64,000 bases of DNA from Candidatus Berkiella sp. (GTDB taxonomy: Bacteria; Pseudomonadota; Gammaproteobacteria; Berkiellales; Berkiellaceae), in NCBI GenBank assembly GCA_050252335.1, contig JBFWLB010000007.1, positions 2,261 to 66,260 of the forward strand. The letters are read 5' to 3'. How positions within the stretch are numbered: position 1 is the first letter of the stretch; every line of letters begins with the position of its first letter. A model generated the notes under the pieces. It had not been told where the DNA came from. It saw only the letters and a program-made list of their open reading frames with translations, and searched no databases. Positions 17,903 to 33,059 of this stretch are shown piece after piece. Both the position numbers and the translations under genes were made by a program.

Positions 17903-18045
17903 TATTTATTCAAGCACTAAAAATGTGCTCATCAAAATGAGCAAAGAGAAATTGAGAGACAAAATTTAAGTGTGGCTATTTCACTCAAATATTTGGGGTC
18001 GGATTCTAGTGGACCTAGTAAAACAACTTGGGACAGGTTATAAAG

Positions 18046-18120
18046 TGTAGTAGCTCAGACTTAATCTGACCGTTACCTGTTTTATTAAGGTGTCTGTTAG
18101 ATTAGATTTGGGCTACTACA
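18046..18120. repeat. 75-bp imperfect hairpin (25-nt arms) with TGTAGT...ACTACA ends
   Basis: tgtagtagctcagacttaatctgac pairs with gttagattagatttgggctactaca at 20/25 Watson-Crick positions, with four G-T pairs. Confidence 0.75.
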
Positions 18121-18296
18121 AATTATTTTCCCTGATGATTTTTAAGGATATTTATTAAATTTTGATAATAAATAGAAAAAATATCTTAAGTAGCTTAAGA
18201 AAACTTTGATGATCCCCAAAATATGTTATTTCTATTCGAAAACTCAAAATTTCAAAGCAATCCACTTTCACTAATGGTGTTACGATATGTGAGTAA

Positions 18297-19817
18297 CTAT
18301 TCCATTTCTACCAATCCGCCTAAAAAATGACAAAATGGTTCAATATTGTGCCTAACACTAGCTTCCTCCAACGCCACCATATAAGCGGTACGTTGCTCAA
18401 CTGGAATAATAGTCCATGAATAGCCACCTGATGCACACATAGTGTTCATCAAGAAGCGACCAATCCGTCCATTACCATCCATATAGGGATGTATATATAC
18501 AAAAAAGAAATGACCAAGCACAATTCTGACAGATGCTTCTTTCTCTTCTTTCAATAAATCGAAAAAAGCCGGCATTAGCTCTCTAACTGCAGCAACATTT
18601 GGTGGAACATGGTGAGACCGGCGTATATAAACCTGGCTTCCTCGATAACCAGCTAAATCTGTTCTTTGCAATATATTTGCTGTAACACTTGGACCAAATA
18701 ACTCACGGTACCAATCGCCATGGGACTGCCATACAACTTGACCTGCATTTTCCCCTTGAATAATTTTTTCTATACTTTGCCTAACTACTTGAAAAGCTTG
18801 CCAATATCCACGCGCAGCTAATGCATCTTTTTGCTTTTGATCATTTTCATTTGTGTCCGGGTTCCAAGTCCCGCTCCTTACCTTTTCAATAAGGTCTAGA
18901 CTAACACGATAACCTTCGATAGAAAGAGAGTGATATGCATCCTGTACATATTTCTCATCAACATTGCTTAAATATGCTGTTACATTCAAAGATTGTAGTG
19001 GAGGGGGTGGAAAATTTCTGAGAATGACTTCCCGCATTTCATGCCACAATATTTTAATGCGACTAACGCAAGGAGATTCTGATCGTTGAGATAATAAAAT
19101 GGGTGCGGCATTTTCAAATGGATCACTTTCTCGCACATCATATTCTGCTAACTGCATAGCTTTAACGATATCATCAGCTATTTTATCTCGACCGATGTTT
19201 CTAAACGCCCCAGCTAAACGTCCTGCAATTGTACTGTGTCCGCCTTCTAGTAAAAGGGATAAAACTTGTGATGCATCATGAATCATAGCAACACTAGCTC
19301 TTGCATCTGTTGGATATTGTCTAAAAAATTTCTGAGAACAATTTAACAATGCTGGAACGAAAGAGTAAATTCTTAGCCCCTTTTTTTCTTCAGTTTCTTT
19401 TTGCTCTGGAAGATTATATCTTACGTTTAAAAATGAGGTTTCAAAGGGCAATGAAATGATTTTATTATCACCTTTTGTAGAATACACTAATAATTGTTTG
19501 GGTACTGTCCAATTATCTGCGTGCAATAATAAGGATTGCTCTGGCGACAAACACCATTCTTGGTTAAATCGTTGATTTAAATAAGATGCACAAAAATCCC
19601 AATACGAAGCATACCAAGCCGTGCTTTCTCCGGTGGATTCGTCTGGGCGCGATGGTATATACCACCCCTTCATCACTTCTTGGATAAAACCATTTTTTTG
19701 CAGGCGCTCTCTATGCACACGAGTCAAATCCCGAGATCTAATTGCCACAAGTCCTTGGTCTTGTAATACTTTTAACGATTCAAGTGACTGAGCTAATTTC
19801 TCGGATGGGGTTGCCAT
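18297..19817 (-). CDS. Fic-domain protein with extended N-terminus
   Basis: HPYMDGNGRIGR Fic motif; inhibitory SLSIEG (S/TxxxEG) motif. Confidence 0.92.
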   Translation of the reverse strand: MATPSEKLAQSLESLKVLQDQGLVAIRSRDLTRVHRERLQKNGFIQEVMKGWYIPSRPDESTGESTAWYASYWDFCASYLNQRFNQEWCLSPEQSLLLHADNWTVPKQLLVYSTKGDNKIISLPFETSFLNVRYNLPEQKETEEKKGLRIYSFVPALLNCSQKFFRQYPTDARASVAMIHDASQVLSLLLEGGHSTIAGRLAGAFRNIGRDKIADDIVKAMQLAEYDVRESDPFENAAPILLSQRSESPCVSRIKILWHEMREVILRNFPPPPLQSLNVTAYLSNVDEKYVQDAYHSLSIEGYRVSLDLIEKVRSGTWNPDTNENDQKQKDALAARGYWQAFQVVRQSIEKIIQGENAGQVVWQSHGDWYRELFGPSVTANILQRTDLAGYRGSQVYIRRSHHVPPNVAAVRELMPAFFDLLKEEKEASVRIVLGHFFFVYIHPYMDGNGRIGRFLMNTMCASGGYSWTIIPVEQRTAYMVALEEASVRHNIEPFCHFLGGLVEME

Positions 19818-19826
19818 TTCATGTAT

Positions 19827-19892
19827 TAATCCTAGGTTATTATGTTGTTTTAATTATAGGTTATTATGTTGTGCTAATTCTAGGTTATTATG
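19827..19892. repeat. Three direct repeats, 24-bp period, just upstream of the Fic gene
   Basis: taggttattatg at 19833, 19857 and 19881. Confidence 0.85.
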
Positions 19893-20088
19893 CGATAAAT
19901 AAAAATAAATACATAAATATCAATAAATTATGAAATTTAATATATAGAAAAATTCTTTTTTAAAAATGAAATATTATGCGAAAAAGAGGATTTAGTGGTG
20001 ATTAATATAGCTGTACATACAACTAATTATCGCATCTTATTAGGTGGAGATTAAACTAGGGTACTAGTTTAGCCGGCTACACATCATG

Positions 20089-20167
20089 AAAGCCCGTAAC
20101 TTCTTAAAATTAAAGGCTTTTTAGTCGTTCTAGTTTTTCGTTGGATTTAAAACTGGGGCGGCGGGAA
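20089..20167 (-). repeat. Distal att site: displaced, damaged tmRNA 3' fragment plus duplicated downstream arm
   Basis: ggcggcgggaa (20157-20167) = 33067-33077; tgga is missing relative to ssrA; homology continues ~65 bp (ggctttttagtcgttct...tttcgttggatttaaa) with 32995-33059. Confidence 0.88.
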
Positions 20168-20408
20168 CTGATTTAAGCACCTATCTAATTGATATTATAT
20201 GACTTTATCAAAACACATTTTTCACGATACTACTATCAGTACAGCTAAAATGAAAAGTCATGCATTTTAACATGGTGTACTTACAACAAAATGGGCTGGA
20301 TGTTTACCCCCCAAGATGTCCTTTTTTAGTTAGCTCGTGTAATATACTTAATATTTAGACTAAGGTGTTCTAGGCGGTACTATATACCCCTAGGGGGTAC
20401 TGTAAAAG

Positions 20409-23400
20409 GTGAAGTTCAACGAAGATTCAAGAGTGAAGATACCCACAATCCTGCATTTGATGCGGTTGGGTTATGGCTATCTGTCTCTAAAAGACCCAAA
20501 GCTCAAACGGGACGAATCTACAAACATCTTTACAGAAATCTTTTTACAAAGCATAAAGCGAATCAACCCTTCCCTAAACGACCTAGAAGCCCAGCAGCTA
20601 CTCTCTGACGTCTCGCTTACCCTAGAGAACGAAGATCTAGGCAAAGCCTTCTATGAAAAGCTCATCGACAAATCTGGTGTTCGCCTCATAGACTTAGAAG
20701 ACTTTAATAACAACTCATTTAATGTTGTCACTGAGCTAACCTACAAAAAAGACGAAGAGGAATTCCGACCGGATATTACTCTGCTCATTAATGGCCTGCC
20801 ATTAGCATTTATAGAAGTTAAGCGACCAAACAACCGCGATGGTATATTAGCTGAGCACAAGCGTATACAAACACGCTTTCAGAACAAGAAGTTTAGAAAT
20901 TTCATTAACATTACCCAGCTAATGGTGTTCTCCAATAATATGGAGTATGACGACAGCACGCCCAGGCCTATTGAGGGGGCATTTTATGCTACGCCATCTT
21001 ATAGCAAGCCCACATTCAATTATTTTCGTGAAGAGCATGTTTTTGACTTAAATGTTTTACTTTCAGATGTGGATGACGAAGAAGAAACTGCATTACTTAA
21101 AGATACTAACTTGCTAAGCATAAAGCAGTCACCAGAATTTGCAAATAACAAAAGTCCTGATACCCCCACAAACCGTATTTGTACTTCACTATTCCAGCGT
21201 GAACGAATTGCTTTTTTACTTGAGTTTGGCTTGGCCTATGTGAAAAAACGAATAGGTGTTGAAAAACATATAATGCGTTATCCGCAAATTTTCGCCACTA
21301 TGGCTATAGAGCAAAAACTTTCTGAGGGTGTAAAAAAAGGCATTATCTGGCACACGCAAGGTAGTGGTAAAACAGCATTGGCTTACTACAATGTAAAATA
21401 TCTCTCTGACTACTTTCAGAATCAAAACATTATCGCTAAATTCTATTTTATTGTTGACAGACTCGATTTGCTTGTTCAAGCAGGCCGTGAGTTTAGATCG
21501 CGTGGATTAGTTGTACACAACATCAATTCAAAAGAAGATTTTGCCAAGGACATCAAAAAAACTACGGCCATACACAACGTTAGTGGCAAAGCTGAAATTA
21601 CAGTCGTCAATATTCAAAAATTTAAGGATGATCCAAACGTTATAAAAAGCGGTGACTATAACGTCAATATTCAGCGAGTATTCTTTTTAGATGAGGTTCA
21701 TCGTAGCTATAATCCAAAAGGCAGCTTTTTAGCCAATTTGGAGCAAGCCGACCGTGATGCAATCAAGATTGGTTTAACTGGTACACCGCTGTTGGGTGAA
21801 GAATATAACTCCAAATTGTTGTTCGGTAATTACATTCACAAATACTATTACAACGCATCCATTAAAGATGGGTATACACTGCGATTGATTCGTGAGGACA
21901 TTGAAACCAGTTATAAACTTGATTTGCAAAAGACTCTCGCAGCAATCTATGAAGACACTGAGATTCTAAAAGGGAGCGGCAACAAAAAACTAGTTTATGC
22001 ACACAAAAGATTTGTAGAGCCAATGCTCGATTACATCATAAAGGATTTTGAGCAAGCCCGTATATCCTTCAACGATAACACTATAGGCGGTATGGTTATA
22101 TGTGATTCTTCAGAGCAAGCTAAAATGATGTTTGATATTTTTCAAGCACAATACGCTAAACCACAAGGCCTAGAGGAGCAGTCAGGATCTGATAACTTGA
22201 CCTCAGAACCAGCCTCATATAAAGCCAAGGAGAAACTAAATAGCCAGGTTACTAATGCCGCCGTTATCTTGCACGATGTTGAAACTAAGGATGAACGCAA
22301 AAAACTAGTCGAAGACTTCAAAGAAGGTAAAATTGACCTCTTGTTCGTATATAACATGTTGCTTACCGGATTCGACTCTCCACGCCTTAAAAAGCTATAC
22401 ATAGGGCGTGTAATTAAAGCCCACAATCTATTGCAAGCCCTTACGCGTGTAAACCGTACCTATCACAATTTTAACTATGGCTATGTGGTGGACTTTGCCG
22501 ATATAGAAAGTGAATTTGAGAAAACAAACAGAGACTATTTTAGAGAACTTCAATCTGAGCTAGGTGATGAAATTGAGCACTATAGTAATCTGTTTAAATC
22601 TCAAGATGAAATCTTAAAAGAAATACAAGAGATCAAAGAAACCCTATTCCATTTTGACACCACTAATGCCGAAATATTTTCGGGTCAAATTTCGCAGATC
22701 AATTCCCGTAGTGAAATGTTAAAAATCACACGCGCCTTAAACAATGCCAAGAGCCTTTATAATCTTATTCGCTTGGCAGGCGATTATGAAATGCTTGAAA
22801 GGCTAGACTTTCAAATGCTCACTGTATTATCTAGGGAGGCAGATAGGCGTCTAGCCCTTATCAATACCAAAGAAGCGTTAGAAAGTAGCGTTGATACCTC
22901 AAACTTGCTTAACGTTGCCTTAGAAGATGTTATCTTTGCGTTCACCAAAGTCAGTGAAGAAGAAATGATTTTAGCTGATGAGCTAAAAAACACGCTTCAA
23001 AGAACACGTGAAGGCCTAGGTGAGAATTTTGATCCCCGTGATCCTGAGTTTGTTTCACTAAAAGAAGAACTTGAACGTCTATTTAAGAAGAAAAACTTAA
23101 GCGAGATCACCAAAGAGCAGATGGAAAGCAACATTAAGGCTTTAAATGATATATATAAACGGGCCAAAGAGCTAGAAAGAAAAAACCAGCTATTAAGGGC
23201 TAAATATGACAATGATGAAAAATATGCTCGTTTACATAAACGTCTCATGGAAAAAGATCCTTTAACGGATAGTGAGAGCAAACTTTTTGAGGCCCTAAAA
23301 AGCTTAAAAACTGAAGTTGACAATAAAATACAACAGAACTCAAAAATGTTAGAAAATGAAAACTATGTTAAAAAAATGGTTACTAAGCTTGTTATCAATC

Positions 23401-23516
23401 AGTTCAGAAACAAGCACATACCTTTAACCCCAGATGCAACCAGACGCATCAACGGTTTAGTGGTAAATGAATATATGAACGAATACTATGGGGGAGCAGG
23501 TACAGCTCGTCTGTAA
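20409..23516 (+). CDS. hsdR: Type I restriction enzyme subunit R
   Basis: RPD...IEVK nuclease motif, HTQGSGKT Walker A, DEVH, GLTGTP, MLLTGFD. Confidence 0.95.
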   Translation: MKFNEDSRVKIPTILHLMRLGYGYLSLKDPKLKRDESTNIFTEIFLQSIKRINPSLNDLEAQQLLSDVSLTLENEDLGKAFYEKLIDKSGVRLIDLEDFNNNSFNVVTELTYKKDEEEFRPDITLLINGLPLAFIEVKRPNNRDGILAEHKRIQTRFQNKKFRNFINITQLMVFSNNMEYDDSTPRPIEGAFYATPSYSKPTFNYFREEHVFDLNVLLSDVDDEEETALLKDTNLLSIKQSPEFANNKSPDTPTNRICTSLFQRERIAFLLEFGLAYVKKRIGVEKHIMRYPQIFATMAIEQKLSEGVKKGIIWHTQGSGKTALAYYNVKYLSDYFQNQNIIAKFYFIVDRLDLLVQAGREFRSRGLVVHNINSKEDFAKDIKKTTAIHNVSGKAEITVVNIQKFKDDPNVIKSGDYNVNIQRVFFLDEVHRSYNPKGSFLANLEQADRDAIKIGLTGTPLLGEEYNSKLLFGNYIHKYYYNASIKDGYTLRLIREDIETSYKLDLQKTLAAIYEDTEILKGSGNKKLVYAHKRFVEPMLDYIIKDFEQARISFNDNTIGGMVICDSSEQAKMMFDIFQAQYAKPQGLEEQSGSDNLTSEPASYKAKEKLNSQVTNAAVILHDVETKDERKKLVEDFKEGKIDLLFVYNMLLTGFDSPRLKKLYIGRVIKAHNLLQALTRVNRTYHNFNYGYVVDFADIESEFEKTNRDYFRELQSELGDEIEHYSNLFKSQDEILKEIQEIKETLFHFDTTNAEIFSGQISQINSRSEMLKITRALNNAKSLYNLIRLAGDYEMLERLDFQMLTVLSREADRRLALINTKEALESSVDTSNLLNVALEDVIFAFTKVSEEEMILADELKNTLQRTREGLGENFDPRDPEFVSLKEELERLFKKKNLSEITKEQMESNIKALNDIYKRAKELERKNQLLRAKYDNDEKYARLHKRLMEKDPLTDSESKLFEALKSLKTEVDNKIQQNSKMLENENYVKKMVTKLVINQFRNKHIPLTPDATRRINGLVVNEYMNEYYGGAGTARL

Positions 23517-23563
23517 TCTAACCTTGAAGCCTGGTTTCAGGCCATCTACCTAGAGAAGAAAAA

Positions 23564-25198
23564 ATGACAGAATCTAAACAATTTGAACAACAAACCAAAA
23601 TGCTCATAGATGATTTAAAAACTGTCTGCGCCAACTATGGTTTGGGCAACGATGGTAATGAATTTAAAATTATCGCTCAAGTATTTTTGTATAAATTTCT
23701 GAACGACAAGTTCGTTTATGAAATTAAGCAATTAGACAAAAAGATCGCCAAGGCAAAAAAATGGGAAGATGCGCTTAACAAATTAGATAAAGATGAATAT
23801 GAAATGTTAATGATGCAGCTAAGCGAAAGTACAGCTCATATAAGGCAAGAGCATTTTATTTCAACTTTATTTGCAAAGCAAAACGAACCAAATTTTGCTG
23901 ATATTTTTGATAACACGTTAGTTGATATTGCCCGTGACAATAGTGATATCTTCTCAGTGCTCACGGCAGGTGGTGAAAAAATAGTACTATTTGATACTTT
24001 AAGTAGATATGTCACTGACAACCGCGATGATTTTTGTAGGGCTATCATTAATAAACTCACAGGCTTTAGCTTCGAACATATTTTTCATCAAAAGTTTGAT
24101 TTTTATGCCACTATTTTTGAGTATCTGATTAAAGATTACAATACTAACAGTGGCGGAAAATATGCAGAATACTTCACCCCACATGCTGTATCTAAAATTA
24201 TGGCGCGTTGCTTAGTCCCCAAAAAGAAAGGGGCAAAAGTTCAAAATGTGACCTGTTACGATCCTTCAGCAGGCTCTGGCACCTTGCTAATGAACCTAGC
24301 CCATGCGATAGGCGAAGACAAATGCACCATCTATTCTCAAGATATCTCACAGAAATCCTCAAGTTTATTGCGTTTAAATCTAATCCTTAACGATTTAGTA
24401 CACTCCATACACAATATAATTCAGGGTAACACTTTACGGGATCCCTTCCATAAAAAGGATAATGGCGAGTTAGCACAATTTGACTATATCGTTTCAAATC
24501 CGCCATTTAAACTCGACTTTTCTGGCTACCGTGATGAACTAGAAAGCAAAGAAAATCATGACCGGTTTTTTGCAGGTGTCCCCAGTGTACCGAAAAAGAA
24601 AAAAGAGTCCATGGCAATTTATTTAATGTTCCTACAGCATATTATCTATTCATTAAAGGCTAAAGGTAAGGCCGCTGTTGTTGTACCAACAGGGTTTATT
24701 ACCGCTCAAAGTGGAATCGATAAAGCTATTCGACAAAAACTGGTAGATGAGAAAATGCTTGCAGGGGTGGTAAGTATGCCTTCAAATATTTTTGCCAATA
24801 CTGGTACCAATGTTTCGATTATATTTATCGATAAAACAAATAAAGAAGATGTGGTATTGATAGATGCCTCAAATCTTGGTGAAACCATTAAGGATGGCAA
24901 AAATCAAAAAACTGTTTTGTCACATGCTGAAGAAGATCAGATTATTAACACGTTTAATGATAAAAAGCCGGTTGATGATTTCTCAGTGGTGGTTAGCTAT
25001 GCCGATATTGCATCGGAAAACTATTCACTAAGTGCAGGACAGTATTTTGAGGTAAAAATCGAGCATGTAGATATTTCACAAAAGGAATTCTTGAATAGGC
25101 TGAATGAGTTTGAGGTGAACATTAGACAGTTATTTAAAGATTCTAAAAGCCTAGAAAATGAGATTATTCAAAATATTAAAGGATTAAATTTTAAATGA
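23564..25198 (+). CDS. hsdM: Type I R-M N6-adenine methyltransferase subunit M
   Basis: EYFTP, YDPSAGSG motif I, NPPF motif IV. Confidence 0.95.
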   Translation: MTESKQFEQQTKMLIDDLKTVCANYGLGNDGNEFKIIAQVFLYKFLNDKFVYEIKQLDKKIAKAKKWEDALNKLDKDEYEMLMMQLSESTAHIRQEHFISTLFAKQNEPNFADIFDNTLVDIARDNSDIFSVLTAGGEKIVLFDTLSRYVTDNRDDFCRAIINKLTGFSFEHIFHQKFDFYATIFEYLIKDYNTNSGGKYAEYFTPHAVSKIMARCLVPKKKGAKVQNVTCYDPSAGSGTLLMNLAHAIGEDKCTIYSQDISQKSSSLLRLNLILNDLVHSIHNIIQGNTLRDPFHKKDNGELAQFDYIVSNPPFKLDFSGYRDELESKENHDRFFAGVPSVPKKKKESMAIYLMFLQHIIYSLKAKGKAAVVVPTGFITAQSGIDKAIRQKLVDEKMLAGVVSMPSNIFANTGTNVSIIFIDKTNKEDVVLIDASNLGETIKDGKNQKTVLSHAEEDQIINTFNDKKPVDDFSVVVSYADIASENYSLSAGQYFEVKIEHVDISQKEFLNRLNEFEVNIRQLFKDSKSLENEIIQNIKGLNFK

Positions 25199-26502
25199 AA
25201 TTGTTAAAATTAAAATCTGTTTCAAATGTTATAACGGGGTTTCCATTTAAAGGTAATGAATATACTGATCGAGGAGTTAGGACAGTTAGAGGTGAAAATG
25301 TTACTGAAGGTAGGCTTCGTTGGGATTCTACAAAACATTGGAATCAACCTTTTGATAAATTTGAGGAATACAGTTTAAAAGCTGACGATATAGTAGTTGG
25401 CATGGATGGGTCAAAAGTTGGGAAAAATAAGGCTAGAATATTTGAAAAAGACTTACCGCTATTACTTGCTCAACGAGTCGCATGTATAAGAGCTAAAAAA
25501 GGAACTGACCAAGTTTTTTTATATTACTGTATAAATAATAATAGATTTGAGGATTATGTTTACCGTATTCAAACTGGATCGGCTGTACCCCATATTAGCA
25601 AAACTCAAATTGAAGAATATTCAATTCCAGCCTTTGATCTTGACACGCAAAAAAAATTATCTAAGACTCTTTCTGATCTAGACAGAAAAATAGAAATCAA
25701 CAACAAAATCAACACCAAACTAGAAGCCATGGCCAAGCTCATCTACGAATATTGGTTTGTACAATTCGACTTCCCTGATGCTAAAGGCAAACCTTACAAA
25801 TCCTCTGGTGGCAAAATGGTTTATAACGAAGCGCTAAAGTATGAAATTCCTGAAGGATGGGAAGCTAAAGAGCTAGCTTCAATATTAAAATGTAATTATT
25901 CTTCAATTGGAAAGAATGGCTCGTTTGATGTGATTGAATATTTGGATACAGGAAGTTTAACAAAGAATGTCGTTAAAGGCACTGAACGAATATATCCTTT
26001 AGAAGATAAAGTACCCAGTAGGGCGAAAAGAATCGTTGGTAAAGATGATATTTTATACTCTACAGTGCGGCCAAACTTGTGCCACTATGGAATAATCAAA
26101 AAACCATTACATAACATGGTGGCTTCAACTGGATTTGCGCAGCTTGCTAGTAGAATAGGCTGGATTAGCAACGATTTAATTTATACGTTTTTAACCTCAC
26201 CTTGGGTTACGAGCAAGTTACACCAAATAGCTACATTATCGGTATCTGCATACCCTTCAATATCACCAAATAATATTTTGGAGTTAAATATAGCTTTACC
26301 AAAAGATAAAAAATTTTTTGAGCCTATCAATTTAATGTTTGCCACAATCTATTCAAAAATTTCACTTAATCAACAAGAGAATATAGAATTGTCCGCGTTA
26401 AGGGACTGGCTCCTCCCCATGCTAATGAACGGGCAAGTTACAGTGAAAGGAACGCACCATAGTAAAAAAGGGAAGTTAAAACATGGCAGCGCAATACTCT
26501 AA
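25195..26502 (+). CDS. hsdS: Type I R-M specificity subunit S
   Basis: Two TRDs separated by the conserved WFVQFDFPD...EIPEGW spacer; LRDWLLPMLMNGQV C-terminal motif; ATGA overlap with hsdM. Confidence 0.93.
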   Translation: MKLLKLKSVSNVITGFPFKGNEYTDRGVRTVRGENVTEGRLRWDSTKHWNQPFDKFEEYSLKADDIVVGMDGSKVGKNKARIFEKDLPLLLAQRVACIRAKKGTDQVFLYYCINNNRFEDYVYRIQTGSAVPHISKTQIEEYSIPAFDLDTQKKLSKTLSDLDRKIEINNKINTKLEAMAKLIYEYWFVQFDFPDAKGKPYKSSGGKMVYNEALKYEIPEGWEAKELASILKCNYSSIGKNGSFDVIEYLDTGSLTKNVVKGTERIYPLEDKVPSRAKRIVGKDDILYSTVRPNLCHYGIIKKPLHNMVASTGFAQLASRIGWISNDLIYTFLTSPWVTSKLHQIATLSVSAYPSISPNNILELNIALPKDKKFFEPINLMFATIYSKISLNQQENIELSALRDWLLPMLMNGQVTVKGTHHSKKGKLKHGSAIL

Positions 26503-27679
26503 CCGTCATTTTTTCAGAAAAACACCGAATTGGTATCTGGCTAAATATTTTGAAGACAAGGGTATTCAGCTTGGCATAAAGGTGTACGAACTACAGGAAA
26601 ATGATGATGAAGCCTTGCAAAATGCCTTGAACCAACTACAGCCCGACCAAATAGCGAGCATCGAAGCAGAGTTTCAAGATGTAAATGCCTTGGCCTGTGA
26701 GGGAGGTATTATAGCTCTGGTTGACGAAGCAAGTTTTCACAATGACCAAGGCTTTATTAAAGAAATTGCTGCTATAGATGGCATGCACGCAAAAGCTATG
26801 TATGCATTTCTCAATAAACCTCAATATTGGCGAGGTGCGGCGATGTTTTTACATGCCGACAATGTAAGTCCATCATATTGGAAGAAACGCAACGATTTCC
26901 TCAATTTACCACCACACCTTGAAAATGATGATACCGACGCTTTTGCCGAAGCAATTAGTGAGTATTTTTCAGGTAAGGAAGGAAGGGGTAAAAATTGTAT
27001 TGTTGAGTCCTATCGCCGCAACCAAAAAGAATATCTCTTTGCTCATCCAGAGGATTTTGGGCAAACCGCTATTGAATGGGTAGGTGGAACTTTAACAAAC
27101 CAAGCGCATCATCCAGCTTTTGAGATTATTTTTGTATACTGTGAAACGGAAGGTTCGCTAGACATATACGCCCCTAGAAATGGGAAAGCAGTACCAGATT
27201 TACAGGCACTATTTGCTAAACATATTTTAAAGCTAGATAGTTTGTCCGAATGGCAAAAGGATCAACGTGTTTATGAGTTAAACACCATATTAGAGAAAGG
27301 TTTTGAATTTAAAATAGAGCCAACGTCAGGCATTTCTAGCGTATTAATCACTAGCCTTCGAGTAACGTTAAAAGAGGATCGAAAAAAGCGCATTATGGTG
27401 GAAGCTGATGCGTATAAAGATGATAAAGCCGTCTTTAGATTACTAGATCGATTGAATTTGCCCCCGTATGACGTAACCCAACTAAGTTTAAAAGTAACCT
27501 TTGAGCCAGTGGGTGGTGCAAAGGCCAAATCTAAGCGAGTAAATATTACTTACCCCAATTCATGTGCGTTGAATCACGATGGCAATGATCTAAAAATACG
27601 CCAAATGCTTGCTCGGTCTGGGCTTGAGCCCAAAGCGGTCGAGGTTAAAACGGTTGAGCCAGAAGCGATAATGGCTTAA
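26483..27679 (+). CDS. Hypothetical island protein (orfA, 398 aa)
   Basis: Long ORF with SD aaggga, overlapping the hsdS end by 20 nt; no family recognised. Confidence 0.8.
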   Translation: MAAQYSNRHFFRKTPNWYLAKYFEDKGIQLGIKVYELQENDDEALQNALNQLQPDQIASIEAEFQDVNALACEGGIIALVDEASFHNDQGFIKEIAAIDGMHAKAMYAFLNKPQYWRGAAMFLHADNVSPSYWKKRNDFLNLPPHLENDDTDAFAEAISEYFSGKEGRGKNCIVESYRRNQKEYLFAHPEDFGQTAIEWVGGTLTNQAHHPAFEIIFVYCETEGSLDIYAPRNGKAVPDLQALFAKHILKLDSLSEWQKDQRVYELNTILEKGFEFKIEPTSGISSVLITSLRVTLKEDRKKRIMVEADAYKDDKAVFRLLDRLNLPPYDVTQLSLKVTFEPVGGAKAKSKRVNITYPNSCALNHDGNDLKIRQMLARSGLEPKAVEVKTVEPEAIMA

Positions 27680-28471
27680 ATGACACTTGATGAAAATCAG
27701 CTATTAATCGAAATATTAACCCGCTTAAGCACTGTTGGCAATTCTATAAGCCTTAGTTTTGATGAGGTTGAGCAATGGCCTAGCGGCTTGTTAAATACGC
27801 TTGTGCAGGCAGGATTGCTTGTTAAGGACGTACAAGCTCAGTCACTTCAGTGTACAGGTTGTGAGTATGGCTGTTTTATGCCGGTAGTTTTTGCTGAGGA
27901 CACCCTTCGGGCTTTTATTGTGTGTGATCATTCTGAACAGCAAGATCATATGGGGCGTATTGCAGTTAATTTATCACGACTTAGTCAGTGGCAGCTAAAT
28001 ACCAAACAAGTGGCTACTGTGCTTGCAAAGCTATTGAAGGTGGAAGCTAAGCCCTTGTATCAAGCAAAAACTGGTAGCTATGCCCTTGGCATGCTTAAAA
28101 GCCCAAAGGGGCGATGTGCGGCGGTATTAGCCTCCACACCTCTGTCTGTTGTAATCAATCAGCATTCAGTACTTATTAGCGACTTGTTATATATTGAAGC
28201 TAATCGCTTGGTTATTGATTCTCAAAAAATTGATACTGTTCTTCACGCCAAACCATTGAGTAAAGGAAAAGTTTACACTGCCCATTCTGATAAACAGCAA
28301 GATAGAAAGTGGGCTACTCAAGCAATGTATGCTGATTGGCAAGACCAGTATAAAAAGCTAAAGCGGGAGCACCCAACAAAATCTGACCTGTGGATTTCAC
28401 GTCAAATATCAAAGATGGCTATTGGTAAAGGTAAAAGCCCAGAAACCATTAGAAAAAATATGAAAGACTAA
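27680..28471 (+). CDS. Hypothetical Cys-cluster protein with possible C-terminal HTH (orfB, 263 aa)
   Basis: Starts immediately after the orfA stop; CTGCEYGC...CD cluster; basic C-terminus SRQISK...PETIRKNM. Confidence 0.75.
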   Translation: MTLDENQLLIEILTRLSTVGNSISLSFDEVEQWPSGLLNTLVQAGLLVKDVQAQSLQCTGCEYGCFMPVVFAEDTLRAFIVCDHSEQQDHMGRIAVNLSRLSQWQLNTKQVATVLAKLLKVEAKPLYQAKTGSYALGMLKSPKGRCAAVLASTPLSVVINQHSVLISDLLYIEANRLVIDSQKIDTVLHAKPLSKGKVYTAHSDKQQDRKWATQAMYADWQDQYKKLKREHPTKSDLWISRQISKMAIGKGKSPETIRKNMKD

Positions 28472-28476
28472 AAAAG

Positions 28477-28623
28477 TTGTGCGGAAATTTTTCGCACAAA
28501 TAACCTATTGATTGACAAAGAATTTGTTCGCTAGGATTCGTTTATTTATTATTGTTTCTTTAGCCCGTGTCGTTGAATCCATTGCACTTGTGGCATTGGT
28601 TGCCTGCCTTTTTTCGCACAAAT
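28477..28623. promoter_or_regulatory. Putative operator sites upstream of alpA
   Basis: Palindrome ttgtgcgg-N7-tcgcacaa (28477-28499) and 14-bp direct repeat tttttcgcacaaat (28488, 28610). Confidence 0.5.
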
Positions 28624-28674
28624 CGCCCAATCATCATGGAACCTCATTCCCAGGAACGTTAAAGAGGTTTCAAA

Positions 28675-28875
28675 ATGTCGCATAAAATTTTAAGACTTCC
28701 CGAGGTGATTAAACAAACCGGTTTATCACGTAGTTCAATTTATCTGCGTATAGCTAACAATGAATTCCCACAACCTATTTCATTAGGTGGGCGTTCAGTT
28801 GGATGGTTACAGCAAGAAATAGATGACTGGTTACTCAACAAAATTGAAACAAGCCGAATCAACGACAATGGCTAA
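28675..28875 (+). CDS. alpA: AlpA family regulator/excisionase
   Basis: ILRLPEVIKQTGLSRSSIY...FPQPISLGGRSVGW. Confidence 0.93.
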   Translation: MSHKILRLPEVIKQTGLSRSSIYLRIANNEFPQPISLGGRSVGWLQQEIDDWLLNKIETSRINDNG

Positions 28876-29314
28876 TTATAATCCCAACAAGGTAAAGATC
28901 AATCGTAGCTATACCTATGAAGAATTGGCTGCTGTGTTTGGAGTGCATAAAAACACGGTAGCCTCTTGGGTAAATAATGGCTTGCCTTGCATGAAAGATA
29001 TGCGGCCGTACCTTATTTTGGGGGCGGATGCAAAGCGATATTTACAAATGAGACAACAAGCAAAAAAACACAAATGTAAGTCAAATGAATTTTATTGCAT
29101 GCGATGTAAAAAGCCAACACGAGCCGCTGAGAACTTCGTGGAATATTTTCCACTGACTGCAACCAAGGGGCGTTTGAGAGGCTTCTGCTTAGCATGCGAA
29201 GGAGTCGTGAATAAGTTTATTGCCAATACGAGTTTAGAAAAATATTCACTGATTTTTGATCTCGTAAAGCCGAAGGGATTAGAACATATAAATGACAGTG
29301 ATAACCCTCTCTAA
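28868..29314 (+). CDS. HTH domain protein with Cys cluster
   Basis: YTYEELAAVFGVHKNTVASWV HTH; YCMRC...CLAC; overlaps the alpA stop. Confidence 0.8.
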   Translation: MANYNPNKVKINRSYTYEELAAVFGVHKNTVASWVNNGLPCMKDMRPYLILGADAKRYLQMRQQAKKHKCKSNEFYCMRCKKPTRAAENFVEYFPLTATKGRLRGFCLACEGVVNKFIANTSLEKYSLIFDLVKPKGLEHINDSDNPL

Positions 29315-29344
29315 AACAGTGGTCTTAAATAGTGAGTTTAAACA

Positions 29345-30445
29345 ATGAGAAGACACAATGCTAATAATGAGCGAATCAAGCGCAAATACTTAGTATTTTT
29401 AAAACAAGCCAAGGGTCAAAATGAAGCTACTATTGATGCTGTGGCTAAAGCGATTGCCCGTTTTGAAAGCTATAACCAGTACAAAGATTTCAAGTCGTTT
29501 CACTATGAGCAGGCTATTGGTTTTAAAAAATACTTGGCTAAACAAAAGCATCATAAAACAGGTAAGCCACTAAGCTTATCTACTTTAAATGGCACGGTGC
29601 GACTTTTAAAAGCATTTCTTGAGTGGCTGTCACAAGAATCTGGTTATAAATCCCGTATTAAGTATTCTGATGCTCAATACTTTAACCTGTCGGAAAAGGA
29701 CACCCGTACCGCAAAAGCTAAACGCCAACAGCCTGTAGCCACAATAGAGCAGATAAAGCACGTGCTGAGAGTGATGCCTAGTACCACCCCCATTCAAAAA
29801 CGTGATAGAGCTTTAATTGCATTCACGCTATTAACAGGCGCTAGAGATAGCGCAATTGCCTCTATGAAGTTAAAGCACGTCGATTTTAATGCTGACACTG
29901 TTTATCAAGATGCTAGGGAAGTTAACACCAAGTTCAGTAAAACCTTTGTAACATGCTTTTTCCCCGTTGGTGATGATGTGCGCGCAATAGTTTTTGAGTG
30001 GGTGACATACCTTAAGACAGAGTGCTTGATGGGTAATGAGGATCCCCTATTCCCCAAAACAAAAATGATCCAAGATGAAGATAATGGCTTTAAGGCTGAT
30101 GGATTAACCAATGAACACTGGGTTAGCGCTGCGGCGATACGTAAGATTTTTAAATATGCATTTGAACTAGCAGATATGCCTTATTTTAATCCTCACAGTT
30201 TTCGTAATACCTTAGCAGCTTTAGGTGAAAGCTTGTGCCAGTCCCCTGAGGAATTTAAAGCATGGAGTCAAAATCTAGGCCATGAGGGCGTACTGACTAC
30301 ATTTTATAGTTATGGCGAAGTGCAAGAGAATAGGCAGGTAGATATTTTTAAACAGTTGAGGCAACCGCGTGCGAATAAGTTGGTTGCTAATGTGGATGAA
30401 TTGGCAAAAGCTGTTGCAAGAGAGATAGTGAAGCAGGGAACTTAG
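29345..30445 (+). CDS. Tyrosine recombinase (second integrase-family gene)
   Basis: TGAR, PHSFR, LGH and C-terminal Tyr catalytic residues present. Confidence 0.9.
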   Translation: MRRHNANNERIKRKYLVFLKQAKGQNEATIDAVAKAIARFESYNQYKDFKSFHYEQAIGFKKYLAKQKHHKTGKPLSLSTLNGTVRLLKAFLEWLSQESGYKSRIKYSDAQYFNLSEKDTRTAKAKRQQPVATIEQIKHVLRVMPSTTPIQKRDRALIAFTLLTGARDSAIASMKLKHVDFNADTVYQDAREVNTKFSKTFVTCFFPVGDDVRAIVFEWVTYLKTECLMGNEDPLFPKTKMIQDEDNGFKADGLTNEHWVSAAAIRKIFKYAFELADMPYFNPHSFRNTLAALGESLCQSPEEFKAWSQNLGHEGVLTTFYSYGEVQENRQVDIFKQLRQPRANKLVANVDELAKAVAREIVKQGT

Positions 30446-30833
30446 CTACTGGTTAACTTGATTACAATATCAATTTTTATAAAATTAGATCCCACTTTGT
30501 TAGCTTCAAACCAAGAGCAGCTCAGCTTAAGCAGTAGTCAAGTGCCGAGGCATTATAGAAAATGTTTGTTCTCATATATGACCCAGCCCATGTGTCTTGG
30601 TCTGATGAGATGTTATATTGTATGGGCTCGATGGCATGCCGATAACTACCTGTGAAATAGGCCAAATTTTGAAAGTTGTGAGCCGTAGGCAGCAATGAAA
30701 GGCTCGCCAGGTGGGGGGGTGTATACACTGGATGTAGATCGTTCCCTAGGCGCAAAATAGGCGATGAAAAGTGACGAAAGGCGTTGCTGCCTAAATATAC
30801 AAAGTTGAAACTGTACGACTAGAGTACTACAAT

Positions 30834-31226
30834 ATGAAGAAAGAACAAATCGAATATATTGCGTTTGAAGGATCAGCTTATACTATTGAGTGGTATTACA
30901 ACGAATCTAACCGGTCGGATGTGCTGGAAGATTTTGAAGAACTTTCAACCGGGGATAAGAAAAATTTATTTATGCTGTTCGAAAGAATGGGGAATGACGG
31001 AGTAATTTCGAATAAAACGAAATTTAGGAATGAAGGCGATGAAATTTGGGCCTTTAAACCGAAACAAGGTCGTTTTCTATGTTTCTTTCACGTGGGCAAA
31101 AAGATTATTGTGCTCAGCTCTTACAAAAAACAAGGTGATAAGCTGCCAAAAAAGGAAAAGAAAAAAGCTGAAAATCGCATGGCAGATTATAAAGCTAGGG
31201 TTAAAAAAGGTGATTATTATGGCTAA
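30834..31226 (+). CDS. RelE/HigB-like (Gp49-type) toxin
   Basis: FRNEGDEIWAFKPKQGRFLCFF...IIVLSSYKKQGDKLP; precedes an overlapping HTH gene. Confidence 0.75.
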   Translation: MKKEQIEYIAFEGSAYTIEWYYNESNRSDVLEDFEELSTGDKKNLFMLFERMGNDGVISNKTKFRNEGDEIWAFKPKQGRFLCFFHVGKKIIVLSSYKKQGDKLPKKEKKKAENRMADYKARVKKGDYYG

Positions 31227-31653
31227 ACCAGTATCAACTTACGAAAGATACATGCAGGATGCTGAATTCAAAAAGGAATACCAAAAAGAATACAAAAAAT
31301 TCTTATTCAGCGAATTACTCTGCGCTTTGATGGACAATGATCGCAAATCCGTTCGTGTATTAGCCGAACAATGTGGTGTTTCCGCCAAGATCATTCAAAA
31401 CCTTAGAACTGGCAAGCAAAAGGATTTAAAGCTTTCTACCTTTTTTAAAGTGATTGAAGTGTTTGGATACGAGGCTTTCATTGAAAAAGGAAACGAAAAA
31501 ATTCCTCTTTTTGATGTAATTGAAGAGGCCGAGGATTTTGAACCTGTTCTCCCTAAGAAGCGACCACCACGAGCTGCCTATACTCCAGTTCGGGCAGCTG
31601 CTGCTAAACATATGGCAAAGCATAAAGTGGCTGCAAAACGTAAGGAAGCTTAA
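31219..31653 (+). CDS. HTH (XRE/HigA-like) antitoxin with basic tail
   Basis: SVRVLAEQCGVSAKIIQNLRTG HTH; ATG 31219 overlaps the toxin stop. Confidence 0.75.
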   Translation: MAKPVSTYERYMQDAEFKKEYQKEYKKFLFSELLCALMDNDRKSVRVLAEQCGVSAKIIQNLRTGKQKDLKLSTFFKVIEVFGYEAFIEKGNEKIPLFDVIEEAEDFEPVLPKKRPPRAAYTPVRAAAAKHMAKHKVAAKRKEA

Positions 31654-32894
31654 TTAACAACTAATCTAAGTGCTCGTTTCTCAAAAAGTTTCATATGCCC
31701 AGAGGCTGCCTGCTCGATGTGATTGCTCCACCACTCCATAACAGGTTTTCGTCTTGCCAGATAATTTGCCCTATTGTAGGCATTTCGCACTTCGTCTTTG
31801 CCAGTGTGAGCTAAGGCAGCTTCTATTACGTCAAAGTCAAAGCCTTGCTCATTCAGAGTGGTACTTGCTAATGCTCTAAAACCATGGGAAACCAGTAAGC
31901 CACCATAGCCCATCCGTTTAAGAGCAACATTTGCGGTGCACGAATTGATATGGGTGCGTGGATCACGATCTGCTGGGAACACATGCTCTCTATGGCCACT
32001 TATAGGTTTCATGATCTCAAGTAGGGCAATGCATTGGTCGGTTAAAGGAACGATGTGTTCCTTTTTCTTTTTCATTCGTTCAGCAGGAATTGTCCAGAGT
32101 CGATTCTCAATGTCGATTTCTTCCCAGCGAGCACCTGCGGCTTCGCTAGGCCTAACCATGGTATGTAGTTGCCATTCGATTAGGCAACGTGTTGTTCGTT
32201 TAATGCTTGCTGTGAGGATTGTCCGCATTAATTCAGGTAATTGATCTGGCTTGAGTGTTGGGAGGTGTTGTTTTGTCGGTGCTTTGAATGCTTTACTGAT
32301 CCCCGCTAATGGATTAGCCGCGAGTATTCCAGAGTTAACAGCAAAGATCATAATTTCATTGAGTCGCTGGCAAAGTCGTTTGACGGTTTCTAGACTGCCT
32401 TTAGCAGCAATAGGCTTGATGGTATCGATAGTTTTGACGGCCGTAATCTTATGAATAGGTAGTTTTCCTAGGCTCGGGAAAATATGTAGCTCAAGCGAGC
32501 GCCATGTGTCGTCTGCGTGGTTGGCTGATACGCTAGACTTTTTGACTTCTAGCCATTGTGCAGCAATGTGTTTAAGCGTGTTTGTGTGCTCACGTTCTTT
32601 TTTAAGATCGTTTTCGTCACGGTATTCTTTGGGATCAATTTCTTTGGCTAGCAATTCTCTAGCAAATTTGCGTTTGCTGCGTGCGTCGGCAATAGATACT
32701 TCAGGATAGCTACCAAAACTGAGGCAGGTTCGCACTTTGGTGAACGGCCGGTAATAATCAAATAGCCAAAGCTTAGAGCCATTGGGTTTTACGCGAAGCT
32801 GTAAGCCTTCGCCATCTGATAGCGCGTAAACCTTCTTTTTGGGCTTTGCCTGTTTAACTTCAGTATTGGTTAAAGGTTTTGTTGTTCTGGCCAT
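31650..32894 (-). CDS. P4-like tyrosine integrase
   Basis: Arm-binding N-terminus LTNTEVKQAKPK...DGEGL; MVRPSE, HGFR, LAH, AY catalytic residues; adjacent to ssrA. Confidence 0.95.
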   Translation of the reverse strand: MARTTKPLTNTEVKQAKPKKKVYALSDGEGLQLRVKPNGSKLWLFDYYRPFTKVRTCLSFGSYPEVSIADARSKRKFARELLAKEIDPKEYRDENDLKKEREHTNTLKHIAAQWLEVKKSSVSANHADDTWRSLELHIFPSLGKLPIHKITAVKTIDTIKPIAAKGSLETVKRLCQRLNEIMIFAVNSGILAANPLAGISKAFKAPTKQHLPTLKPDQLPELMRTILTASIKRTTRCLIEWQLHTMVRPSEAAGARWEEIDIENRLWTIPAERMKKKKEHIVPLTDQCIALLEIMKPISGHREHVFPADRDPRTHINSCTANVALKRMGYGGLLVSHGFRALASTTLNEQGFDFDVIEAALAHTGKDEVRNAYNRANYLARRKPVMEWWSNHIEQAASGHMKLFEKRALRLVVN

Positions 32895-32895
32895 C

Positions 32896-32950
32896 TTAGT
32901 AGTACCACTTTTAGAGTATCGCTATGGTACTACTAAGTGAACTACTAAAA
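32896..32950. promoter_or_regulatory. Putative integrase arm-type sites
   Basis: 12-bp perfect IR ttagtagtacca / tggtactactaa plus actactaaaa; a similar 26-mer (18/26) at 20225-20250 at the other island end. Confidence 0.55.
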
Positions 32951-32990
32951 AAGTAGGATCTTATGAAATGCCTTAGAGTCTTATAGGTAC

Positions 32991-33028
32991 AAAAAAAGCC
33001 TATAACTCGTTAAAATTATAGGCTTTTT
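32991..33028 (-). terminator. Intrinsic terminator downstream of ssrA
   Basis: aaaaaaagcctataa-N10-ttataggcttttt hairpin with T tracts. Confidence 0.7.
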
Positions 33029-33059
33029 AGTCGTTCTCGTATTTCGTTGGATTTAAATC

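What the first reader, a model, noticed from the sequence alone, without database searches (positions are those of the whole stretch)
18297..19892. AbiEi-like DNA-binding region fused to an auto-inhibited Fic domain, with triple 24-bp repeats upstream
Seen: C-terminal HPYMDGNGRIGR plus the inhibitory SLSIEG motif (class II Fic). The N-terminal ~250 aa (FIQEVMKGWYI, WCLSPEQSLLLH..WTVPKQLLV) resemble type IV TA antitoxin AbiEi patterns by eye. Three taggttattatg repeats at 24-bp spacing lie just upstream of the start. Known: AbiEi autorepresses via promoter repeats, and single-gene Fic anti-phage systems exist. Inference: a one-gene, self-regulated toxin or defence unit beside a defence island.
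Basis: partly seen in the sequence, partly recalled or inferred. Interest (0 to 1): 0.65.

Follow-up and report, generated by a model that had tools for sequence, protein, structure and literature searches.

The report
Self-repressing AbiEi-like Fic enzyme gene
A single mobile gene encodes a self-inhibited protein-modifying (Fic) enzyme fused to a DNA-binding module shaped like the AbiEi antitoxin. Its product very probably binds the three 24-bp repeats over its own promoter; the package recurs across many bacterial phyla, and I found no paper describing it.

Summary
ORF 18297-19817 (-) encodes 506 aa with an intact Fic motif (HPYMDGNGRIGR) and a class II inhibitory motif (SLSIEG). Three 24-bp tandem repeats end 4-9 nt before its ATG.

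The by-eye AbiEi guess holds at fold level. A confident AlphaFold model of aa 1-265 has AbiEi (6Y8Q) and Rv2827c (1ZEL) as its top PDB matches. Sequence models of AbiEi do not match.

The repeats are a hallmark of the family. In 73 of 78 homologous loci from many phyla, 24 bp is the best upstream period (3-6 copies). The core is CAnAATAAnC(T/G)AA.

Base 15 of the repeat changes in step with protein residue 117: G with Arg, A with Gln/Lys/Ser/Thr, C with Gly/Asp/Asn. This held in all 6 well-supported independent comparisons, so the protein probably reads its own repeats.

The gene has no conserved partner. It is patchy among relatives, occurs on plasmids, and here lies in variable DNA inserted next to the tmRNA gene. 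The adjacent type I restriction island is a separate insertion.

Toxin or defence activity is untested. Unexpectedly, phased pairs of the same operator motif also occur in phage genomes that lack the gene.

The parts
18297..19817 (-). AbiEi-fold::Fic fusion gene, 506 aa (stop codon included)
   Evidence: ORF. More than 8000 full-length homologs; the 120 listed are 63-99% identical, and 80 genome loci from many phyla are 58-65% identical. AF2 pLDDT 91.9, pTM 0.89.
19023..19817 (-). N-terminal AbiEi-like DNA-binding module, aa 1-265. It holds a winged HTH (H4-20, short strand and helix, H33-41, hairpin 45-55) and an alpha/beta second subdomain.
   Evidence: AF2 pLDDT 91.4. Foldseek PDB top hits: 6y8q_A AbiEi at E 7e-5, 1zel_A Rv2827c at E 1.2e-3 with TMq 0.51 over 268 columns. 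hhalign to AbiEi alignments gives E 0.0023 over H3 plus wing, and E 0.11 over 112 columns. No Pfam or PADLOC hit.
19455..19484 (-). Hairpin loop aa 112-121 (YSTKGDNKII). Residue 117 (Asp here) is the candidate base-reading position.
   Evidence: Residue 117 co-varies with repeat base 15 at MI 1.24 bits; the next-best column scores 0.72. All 6 independent pairs on supported branches are concordant, p 0.031.
18912..18929 (-). Inhibitory motif SLSIEG (aa 297-302; Glu301), class II Fic
   Evidence: Aligns with FICD TVAIEG. S297, L298, S299, I300, E301 and G302 are invariant in 41 homologs.
18456..18491 (-). Fic active-site motif HPYMDGNGRIGR (aa 443-454)
   Evidence: Pfam Fic E 1.5e-13. H443, P444, Y445, D447, G448, N449, G450, R451 and R454 are invariant. 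FICD structures are the best PDB matches.
19822..19898 (-). Operator array: three 24-bp direct repeats (TTATCGCATAATAACCTAGAATTA / GCACAACATAATAACCTATAATTA / AAACAACATAATAACCTAGGATTA) ending 4-9 nt before the ATG. The middle unit holds a TATAAT.
   Evidence: A 24-bp period is found in 73/78 homolog loci. Consensus from 287 units: CAnAATAAnC(T/G)AA.
20088..20168 (+). Distal copy of the tmRNA 3' end plus terminator. It is the left boundary of the separate restriction/integrase island (partner copy at 32994-33078), so fic lies outside that island.
   Evidence: 36/38 identity in the core and ~80 bp aligned. The island has zero depth in four other metagenomes.

Best explanation
This is a self-contained, horizontally mobile one-gene module.

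The N-terminal 265 aa adopt the two-subdomain fold of AbiEi/Rv2827c, the antitoxin and autorepressor of AbiE systems. I infer that this half binds the 24-bp direct repeats that cover the gene's own promoter and 5' leader. One monomer would sit on each repeat, as proposed for AbiEi on its 23-bp half-sites. The result would be self-repression.

Base recognition involves the invariant winged HTH. It also involves a hairpin loop (aa 112-121) in the second subdomain, where residue 117 reads repeat base 15.

The C-terminal half is a class II Fic AMP-transferase. It has an intact catalytic motif and is held off by its own inhibitory glutamate (Glu301).

The most likely role is a single-chain toxin-antitoxin-like or anti-phage/addiction unit, with the AbiEii toxin of AbiE replaced by a fused Fic enzyme. 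Some trigger would relieve promoter repression, enzyme inhibition or both, and a conserved cellular protein would then be AMPylated.

Shown: the architecture, the fold, conservation of the repeat array, and protein-DNA co-variation. Inferred: repression, stoichiometry, toxicity, trigger and target.
For: Fic motif, inhibitory motif and FICD-like fold. AbiEi and Rv2827c are the top structural matches for aa 1-265, and 1zel is the only non-Fic hit among the 50 listed for the full-length model.

A motif-free scan gives 24 bp as the best upstream period in 73 of 78 loci from Pseudomonadota, Acidobacteriota, Verrucomicrobiota, Desulfobacterota, Nitrospirota, Bacteroidota and Vampirovibrio. 72 of 76 loci have 3-6 units, and the last unit ends a median 12 nt before the ATG. 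In 30 of 72 loci a -35-like T(C/T)GAC in one unit is followed by a -10-like TAnAnn hexamer in the next.

Repeat base 15 tracks residue 117: G with Arg in 30/32 loci, C with Gly/Asp/Asn/Ser, and A with Gln/Lys/Ser/Thr. The DNA state changes 13 times on the tree, and 6 of 6 independent pairs on supported branches are concordant. The phased pair is unique in the genome.

The gene has no conserved neighbour and the orientation of flanking genes is random. The N-terminal profile is found only in 516-545-aa frames, one copy per genome, in 12 of 401 genomes. Distribution is patchy (8/61 relatives), and same-genus copies are only 68-69% identical. The family sits on 80 plasmid records, 41 of them conjugative, and no full-length copy appears in 50,697 phage records.

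Precedents from the literature: AbiEi is monomeric and covers 23 bp per site over its own promoter (PMC3985639). CccR is a Fic protein that represses its own promoter through a fused HTH (PMC9755527).
Against: There is no experiment: no binding, repression, toxicity or protection data for any member.

Sequence-level AbiEi membership fails. Pfam and PADLOC give nothing for aa 1-265, and hhalign is weak. Foldseek TM-scores are modest (0.37-0.51).

The consensus promoter scan did not call a promoter inside this window's array. The window's -35/-10 equivalents are weak, apart from a TATAAT in unit 2.

The co-variation test rests on 6 supported independent pairs (p 0.031), and the units were picked with a weight matrix.

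The family is 58-75% identical across phyla, which is unusually conservative for a toxin or defence gene and fits a regulatory enzyme equally well. Class II Fic proteins with an intact glutamate are often weak AMPylators or de-AMPylators.
Confidence: 0.6

Rival explanations
1. The protein is a regulatory enzyme rather than a toxin or defence gene. It would be a DNA-tethered, bifunctional AMPylase/de-AMPylase like FICD. The repeat array would act as a scaffold that sets its oligomeric state and so its activity towards a conserved host protein, to the benefit of the host or the mobile element.
For: FICD is the closest solved relative by sequence and fold, and the inhibitory Glu is retained. Conservation across phyla is very high. 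There is one copy per genome. Many loci sit among housekeeping genes.
Against: Distribution is patchy and driven by horizontal transfer. The gene occurs on plasmids and islands. The neighbours that recur most often are integrases, AbiEii, DUF4143/AAA_14, HipA and Mrr. No conserved substrate gene sits nearby.
Confidence: 0.2
2. The module is an addiction or maintenance unit for mobile elements. Loss of the element would stop synthesis of the repressor-enzyme and shift the balance towards toxicity, stabilising plasmids and islands rather than defending against phage.
For: 80 plasmid records carry it, 41 of them conjugative. Here it lies in variable DNA at the tmRNA gene. AbiE itself stabilises plasmids (PMC3985639).
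Against: A single polypeptide has no obvious unstable-antitoxin/stable-toxin asymmetry. Many chromosomal copies are not inside recognisable elements.
Confidence: 0.12
3. The repeats are not this protein's operator. They could be chance tandem duplications, replication iterons, or sites for another host factor.
For: No binding data exist. The promoter scan is silent in this window. Orphan arrays exist without the gene.
Against: The 24-bp period is conserved in 73/78 loci, always directly upstream of the gene. One base co-varies with residue 117 on independent branches. Off-phase and reversed controls give 0 hits.
Confidence: 0.04

Closest known systems
AbiEi / Rv2827c (COG5340), antitoxin-autorepressors of AbiE/MenAT systems (PDB 6Y8Q, 1ZEL; PMC3985639)
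   Same: Two-subdomain fold: wHTH plus a second domain. A monomer-sized DNA site of 23-24 bp. Repeated sites covering the gene's own promoter. Found on mobile elements and in defence or toxin-antitoxin neighbourhoods.
   Different: No sequence-model match. No AbiEii/DUF1814 partner gene; the 'toxin' is a fused Fic domain. The sites are 3-6 head-to-tail direct repeats, whereas AbiEi has two inverted 23-bp sites.
FICD/HYPE and other class II Fic proteins (PDB 4U04, 6I7G; BT_2513 3CUC)
   Same: Fic core, canonical catalytic motif, and an N-terminal inhibitory helix with [ST]xxxE[GN] aligned to FICD Glu234.
   Different: The N-terminal partner is an AbiEi-like DNA-binding module, not a TPR domain. 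The gene is bacterial, mobile and carries its own operator array.
CccR (Yersinia pseudotuberculosis) and SoFic-type Fic proteins with a C-terminal wHTH (PDB 7XUX, 3EQX; PMC9755527)
   Same: A Fic enzyme fused to a DNA-binding domain. In CccR that domain represses the gene's own promoter.
   Different: In CccR/SoFic the HTH is C-terminal, small, and binds a palindrome as a dimer. Here a 265-aa AbiEi-fold module is N-terminal and the sites are phased direct repeats. The PADLOC SoFic model matches only the Fic core.
A second AbiEi_4-like::Fic family in a related genome (L096:3484-4986, 500 aa)
   Same: The same order of modules. Its N-terminus hits AbiEi models directly: Pfam AbiEi_4 at 22.6 bits, and PADLOC AbiEi at E 8e-6.
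   Different: Only the Fic core is alignable to the window's protein, at 33% over 69 aa. It is a separate lineage of the same design.

Membership tests
Fic/Fido AMP-transferases | Catalytic motif HxFx(D/E)GNGRxxR | tested here: met
   HPYMDGNGRIGR at aa 443-454, with Tyr in place of Phe. Pfam Fic E 1.5e-13. The motif residues are invariant in 41 homologs.
Fic/Fido AMP-transferases | Fido fold | tested here: met
   Foldseek of the full-length model: FICD at E 1.6e-9, plus BT_2513, CdFic and SoFic.
Class II Fic (intramolecular N-terminal inhibition) | [ST]xxxE[GN] on a helix N-terminal to the core, in the same chain | tested here: met
   SLSIEG at aa 297-302 lies within helix 279-300 of the model. 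It aligns with FICD TVAIEG.
Class I Fic toxin-antitoxin (FicTA/VbhTA) | Separate small antitoxin gene supplying the inhibitory helix | tested here: not met
   No partner ORF in the window and no conserved neighbour in 80 loci.
AbiEi (COG5340) antitoxin-repressors | N-terminal wHTH plus C-terminal domain fold | tested here: met
   6y8q_A at E 7e-5 and 1zel_A at E 1.2e-3 over 234-268 columns are the top PDB hits. The secondary-structure order H1-S1-H2-H3-S2-wing-S3 is seen.
AbiEi (COG5340) antitoxin-repressors | Match to the family's sequence models (Pfam AbiEi_1-4, PADLOC AbiEi) | tested here: not met
   No Pfam hit at E up to 10 and no PADLOC hit at 0.01. PF13338 is absent from the genome. hhalign gives only E 0.0023 and 0.11.
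AbiEi (COG5340) antitoxin-repressors | Operonic partner AbiEii (DUF1814) nucleotidyltransferase toxin | tested here: not met
   No such gene is adjacent in the window. AbiEii appears in only 4 of 146 neighbour proteins from 65 loci.
AbiEi (COG5340) antitoxin-repressors | Binds repeats over its own promoter and autorepresses | tested here: inconclusive
   Indirect support only: a conserved 24-bp array and residue 117/base 15 co-variation. No binding assay is possible with these tools.
SoFic single-gene defence (PADLOC) | Full-length match to the SoFic model (Fic_N, Fic, C-terminal wHTH) | tested here: not met
   The PADLOC SoFic model matches only aa 291-500, to model positions 58-257 of 361. 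NCBIfam SoFic scores 26 bits against a cut-off of 550. The protein ends right after the Fic core.
Anti-phage defence system (any) | Protection against phage on expression | not testable with these tools
   Only context is available: a restriction island next door, defence and toxin-antitoxin genes among the recurrent neighbours, and operator-like sites in phage DNA.

The most novel reading that the evidence does not exclude
The DNA-binding half may recognise invading DNA as well as its own promoter. Phased 24-bp pairs of the same operator motif sit in phage genomes that lack the gene, including two complete jumbo phages. They lie in front of diverse phage genes. Two contigs carry sites of two specificity classes side by side. 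The module would then be an infection sensor: phage DNA would draw the repressor-enzyme off its promoter, or recruit it to phage DNA. Alternatively the phage sites are decoys that neutralise it.
Probability: 0.2. Interest if true: 0.85.

Novelty: new variant of a known kind. Interest (0 to 1): 0.68.

Why it matters
The family is large. It is strongly conserved, and I found no paper on it in three literature searches.

It joins two well-studied parts, an AbiEi-type repressor/antitoxin and a class II Fic enzyme, into one chain that carries its own operator array. This would be a compact model for how promoter occupancy and enzyme inhibition can be coupled.

The residue 117/base 15 rule (Arg-G, Gln/Lys-A, Gly/Asp-C) is a concrete, testable piece of a recognition code for the poorly understood AbiEi second domain.

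If the operator-like sites in phages are real targets, this would be a defence or counter-defence mechanism based on shared DNA sites.

Tried and rejected
- **Pfam, NCBIfam and PADLOC on aa 1-265:** no hit.
- **Profile-profile comparison with AbiEi alignments built from related genomes:** weak, E 0.11 and 0.0023. The AbiEi link therefore rests mainly on fold.
- **Consensus promoter/terminator scan:** no promoter called inside the array. The only strong hit (20406-20379, -) lies inside the neighbouring island.
- **Transcript evidence:** only DNA metagenome runs hold this sequence, so no transcription start could be read.
- **Second co-variation (repeat base 17 against residues 84, 113, 114, 119):** too few independent pairs, not supported.
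- **Conserved partner gene:** none found.
- **fic as part of the restriction island:** rejected. The island has its own direct repeats and is absent where fic is present.
- **Phage-encoded look-alikes of the N-terminal fold in BFVD:** none significant.
- **Strict phased motif in 401 bacterial genomes:** 0 hits. The pattern is too strict even for this window's own array, so no enrichment statistic for phage against bacterium could be made.
- **Literature** (Fic+AbiEi; Fic domain+winged helix+direct repeats+autoregulation; Fic+COG5340): no description of this fusion.

Full report
**1. Observation**

The ORF at 18297-19817 on the minus strand is real and encodes 506 aa.
- The Fic motif HPYMDGNGRIGR is aa 443-454. 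The motif SLSIEG is aa 297-302.
- Pfam Fic matches aa 389-460 at E 1.5e-13.
- The best solved relatives are FICD/HYPE structures. The alignment places SLSIEG on FICD's inhibitory TVAIEG.
- The repeat finder reports three 24-nt tandem copies at 19822-19893, at 88% and 83% identity.
- The 12-mer CATAATAACCTA occurs exactly three times at 24-bp spacing. Allowing one mismatch, the window holds 5 matches against 0.64 expected, and no shuffle reached 5.
- The phased pair is unique in the 2.79-Mb genome.
- There is no small partner ORF on either side.

**2. The protein**

The family is very large and conservative.
The 120 listed are 63-99% identical to the window's protein.
- Eighty loci from named genomes are 58-65% identical. 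They span Gamma-, Alpha- and Betaproteobacteria, Desulfobacterota, Acidobacteriota, Verrucomicrobiota, Nitrospirota, Bacteroidota and Vampirovibrio.
- The N-terminal 265 aa are as conserved as the Fic half. They match nothing in Pfam even at E 10, and nothing in PADLOC.

AlphaFold2 gives confident models: pLDDT 91.9 and pTM 0.89 for the full length, and pLDDT 91.4 for aa 1-265.
- Foldseek of the N-terminal model against the PDB returns, as its only hits at or near E 1e-3, AbiEi of Streptococcus agalactiae (6y8q, E 7e-5 and 4e-4) and Rv2827c of M. tuberculosis (1zel, E 1.2e-3, TMq 0.51, 268 columns).
- Rv2827c is also the only non-Fic hit among the 50 listed for the full-length model.
- The secondary-structure order (H1, short S1/H2, H3 33-41, hairpin 45-55) is that described for the AbiEi wHTH (PMC3985639).
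- Profile-profile comparison with AbiEi alignments taken from related genomes is weak but consistent in topology. It gives E 0.0023 over H3 plus wing, and E 0.11 over 112 columns that continue into the second subdomain.

The module is not a member of any AbiEi sequence model.

A related genome holds a different 500-aa protein of the same design. Its N-terminus does hit AbiEi models: Pfam AbiEi_4 at 22.6 bits, and PADLOC AbiEi at E 8e-6. AbiEi-head::Fic is therefore a recurring architecture.

The N-terminal domain of this family seems to exist only in this fusion.
- phmmer against 1.8 billion representatives finds 1351 clusters. Among the 150 listed, the longest are mostly about 470-600 aa, the fusion's size; many shorter entries (129-400 aa) are probably fragments, which I did not check.
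- A profile search of 401 Pseudomonadota genomes finds it in 12. Each has one copy, always in a 516-545-aa frame.

**3. The repeats are a hallmark of the family**

- For each of 78 homologous loci I took the 150 nt upstream of the start and asked which period between 12 and 36 bp gives the best three-copy self-match, using no motif. The answer was exactly 24 bp in 73 of 78.
- A weight matrix refined on these regions collects 287 units from 76 loci. Of these, 72 loci have 3-6 units, with a mode of 4.
- The conserved core is C7-A8-n-A10-A11-T12-A13-A14-n-C16-(T/G)17-A18-A19.
- The last unit ends a median 12 nt before the ATG.
- One unit per locus usually carries TCGACA or TTGACA at positions 3-8. 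In 30 of 72 loci the next unit carries a -10-like TAnAnn hexamer at 17-nt spacing. The array therefore spans promoter to ribosome-binding region.
- In this AT-rich window the equivalents are weak. Unit 2 contains TATAAT, but the consensus scan called no promoter there.
- The Bacteroides plasmid p5482 copy (50% identical) still shows a 24-bp period with a diverged unit.

**4. The protein reads the repeats**

Repeat position 15 varies between loci (C, G or A). Among all alignment columns of the protein, residue 117 (window numbering; Asp here) has by far the highest mutual information with it: 1.24 bits against 0.72 for the next column.
- G goes with Arg in 30 of 32 loci.
- C goes with Gly, Asp, Asn or Ser.
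- A goes with Gln, Lys, Ser or Thr.

These pairings fit the usual Arg-guanine and Gln-adenine contacts (general knowledge of protein-DNA recognition).

I built a maximum-likelihood tree without columns 108-125. On it the DNA state changes 13 times. Independent-pair sampling gives 6 pairs on well-supported branches (11 on all branches). All 6 supported pairs are concordant (sign test p 0.031).

Residue 117 lies in the hairpin loop between strands 108-113 and 119-123, in the second subdomain and not in the wHTH. This fits the published proposal that an AbiEi or Rv2827c monomer contacts about 23 bp along a basic surface running across both domains (PMC3985639).

A second candidate pairing, base 17 against residues 84, 113, 114 and 119, was not supported.

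**5. Context**

No gene family recurs next to the gene in 80 loci, and flanking orientation is random.
- Among 146 neighbour proteins from 65 loci, the most frequent families are DUF4143/AAA_14, AbiEii and phage integrase (4 each), then HTH_3, then transposase, HipA and Mrr. Many housekeeping genes also appear.
- The family is present in 8 of 61 relatives. Same-genus copies are only 68-69% identical.
- It sits on 80 plasmid records, 41 of them conjugative. No full-length copy appears in 50,697 phage records.

In this window a tmRNA gene lies at 33060-33408.
- An imperfect repeat of about 80 bp, covering the tmRNA 3' end and its terminator, recurs at 20088-20168.
- It bounds an island with two integrases, a Gp49/HigB-like gene, an HTH_17 gene, two unknown genes and hsdRMS.

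Contigs from four other metagenomes of the same organism add three points:
- The flanks are at full depth.
- The restriction island is absent.
- fic is at equal or lower depth.

There are empty-site joints from 18044 to 33041/33046. In one run fic is followed by 13.7 kb of different cargo. So fic lies in variable DNA inserted at the tmRNA gene, and the restriction island is an independent insertion beside it.

**6. Unexpected: the operator motif in phages**

- It occurs in 11 viral contigs.
- The same motif at periods 23, 25 or 27, and the motif read backwards at period 24, each give 0 hits.
- Only one of the 11 contigs has the fic gene behind the array.
- No fic or N-terminal homolog was found anywhere in nine of the other ten records; one was not held. 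The nine include two CheckV-complete jumbo phages.

Among the first 120 metagenome hits, 75 arrays are followed by fic within 200 nt and one more at 272 nt. A further 36 are orphans, with at least 400 nt of room downstream and no fic.
- ORFs around the orphans hit phage terminases, portal, head morphogenesis, methyltransferases, endonuclease VII, Sak4 and primase/helicase.
- The genes directly behind the orphans are diverse.
- Orphans are mostly two full units that include the flanking unit consensus. Two contigs carry two GCG-class and two CCT-class units in tandem.
- No phage protein with the N-terminal fold was found in BFVD.

I could not compute an enrichment against bacterial DNA, because the strict pattern gives 0 hits in 401 genomes.

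This remains unexplained. It is the basis of the novel reading: sensing of phage DNA, or a phage decoy.

**7. Mechanism and comparison**

The best-supported reading is a one-gene module.
- The AbiEi-fold half occupies a head-to-tail array over its own promoter, one monomer per 24-bp unit. I hold this part at roughly 0.85.
- The Fic half is an auto-inhibited AMP-transferase.
- The biological role (toxin, abortive infection, addiction or regulatory enzyme) is inferred from relatives and context only. I hold toxin or defence at roughly 0.4.

It works like AbiEi in regulation and like class II Fic proteins in catalysis. It echoes CccR, a Fic protein that represses its own promoter through a C-terminal HTH (PMC9755527).

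It is not a member of AbiE (no AbiEii partner, no sequence-model match). It is not a member of the SoFic defence family either, because only the Fic core matches.

Three literature searches found no description of this fusion.

Other follow-up notes of this scan reached the same reading for relatives in other genomes. These are not independent evidence.

Noticed in passing
window 20088-33078: A ~12.9-kb island is integrated at the tmRNA gene (33060-33408, -). It is bounded by ~80-bp imperfect direct repeats that include the last ~19 nt of the tmRNA gene and its terminator. It carries a P4-type integrase (31650-32894), a second integrase (29345-30445), a Gp49/HigB-like gene (30834-31226), an HTH_17 gene (28823-29314), two ORFs with no family hit (26483-28471) and type I hsdRMS (20409-26502). 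It has zero depth in four other metagenomes of the same organism.
   Followed up: partly
window 18001-18200: Other metagenomes show empty-site joints from 18044 to 33041/33046. One 16-kb cyclic contig holds fic followed by 13.7 kb of different cargo and returns to 18001-18044. A 40-nt stretch (18160-18201) is replaced by 78 other letters in two runs.
   Followed up: partly
L096:3484-4986 (-), a genome of the same family: A different 500-aa AbiEi_4-like::Fic protein (HPFDDGNGRLSR, SNFIEG). Its N-terminus hits AbiEi models directly. It lies next to large ankyrin-repeat proteins.
   Followed up: partly
aa ~86-225 of the protein (window 19143-19562): After AbiEi and Rv2827c, the next Foldseek hits of the N-terminal model are nucleotidyltransferase folds: JHP933 (described there as a putative nucleotidyltransferase) at E 8e-3, then MenT1, ANT(2'')-Ia and viral poly(A) polymerases. 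The AbiEi-type second subdomain may be a degenerate NTase-like fold.
   Followed up: no
L109-L119 (IMG/VR) and L120-L239 (metagenome contigs): Phased 24-bp pairs of the operator motif occur in phage DNA without the fic gene. L109 has four perfect tandem units. L112 and L115/L118/L119 have the pair next to tRNA genes of jumbo phages. L225 and L239 carry two GCG-class plus two CCT-class units in tandem.
   Followed up: partly
own genome, contig C40 (L002, L003): Two further Fic-motif ORFs (391 and 381 aa frames) match only the Fic core of the query (E 4e-6 and 1e-5). They are unrelated to this family's N-terminus.
   Followed up: no
L108 (Bacteroides thetaiotaomicron plasmid p5482, 28902-30410): A 50%-identical family member sits on a 33-kb conjugative plasmid between a recombinase and RhuM genes on one side and an ArdC-like gene on the other. 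Its upstream region keeps a 24-bp period (ACGAGTA at 2931 and 2955 of the locus) with a diverged unit.
   Followed up: partly
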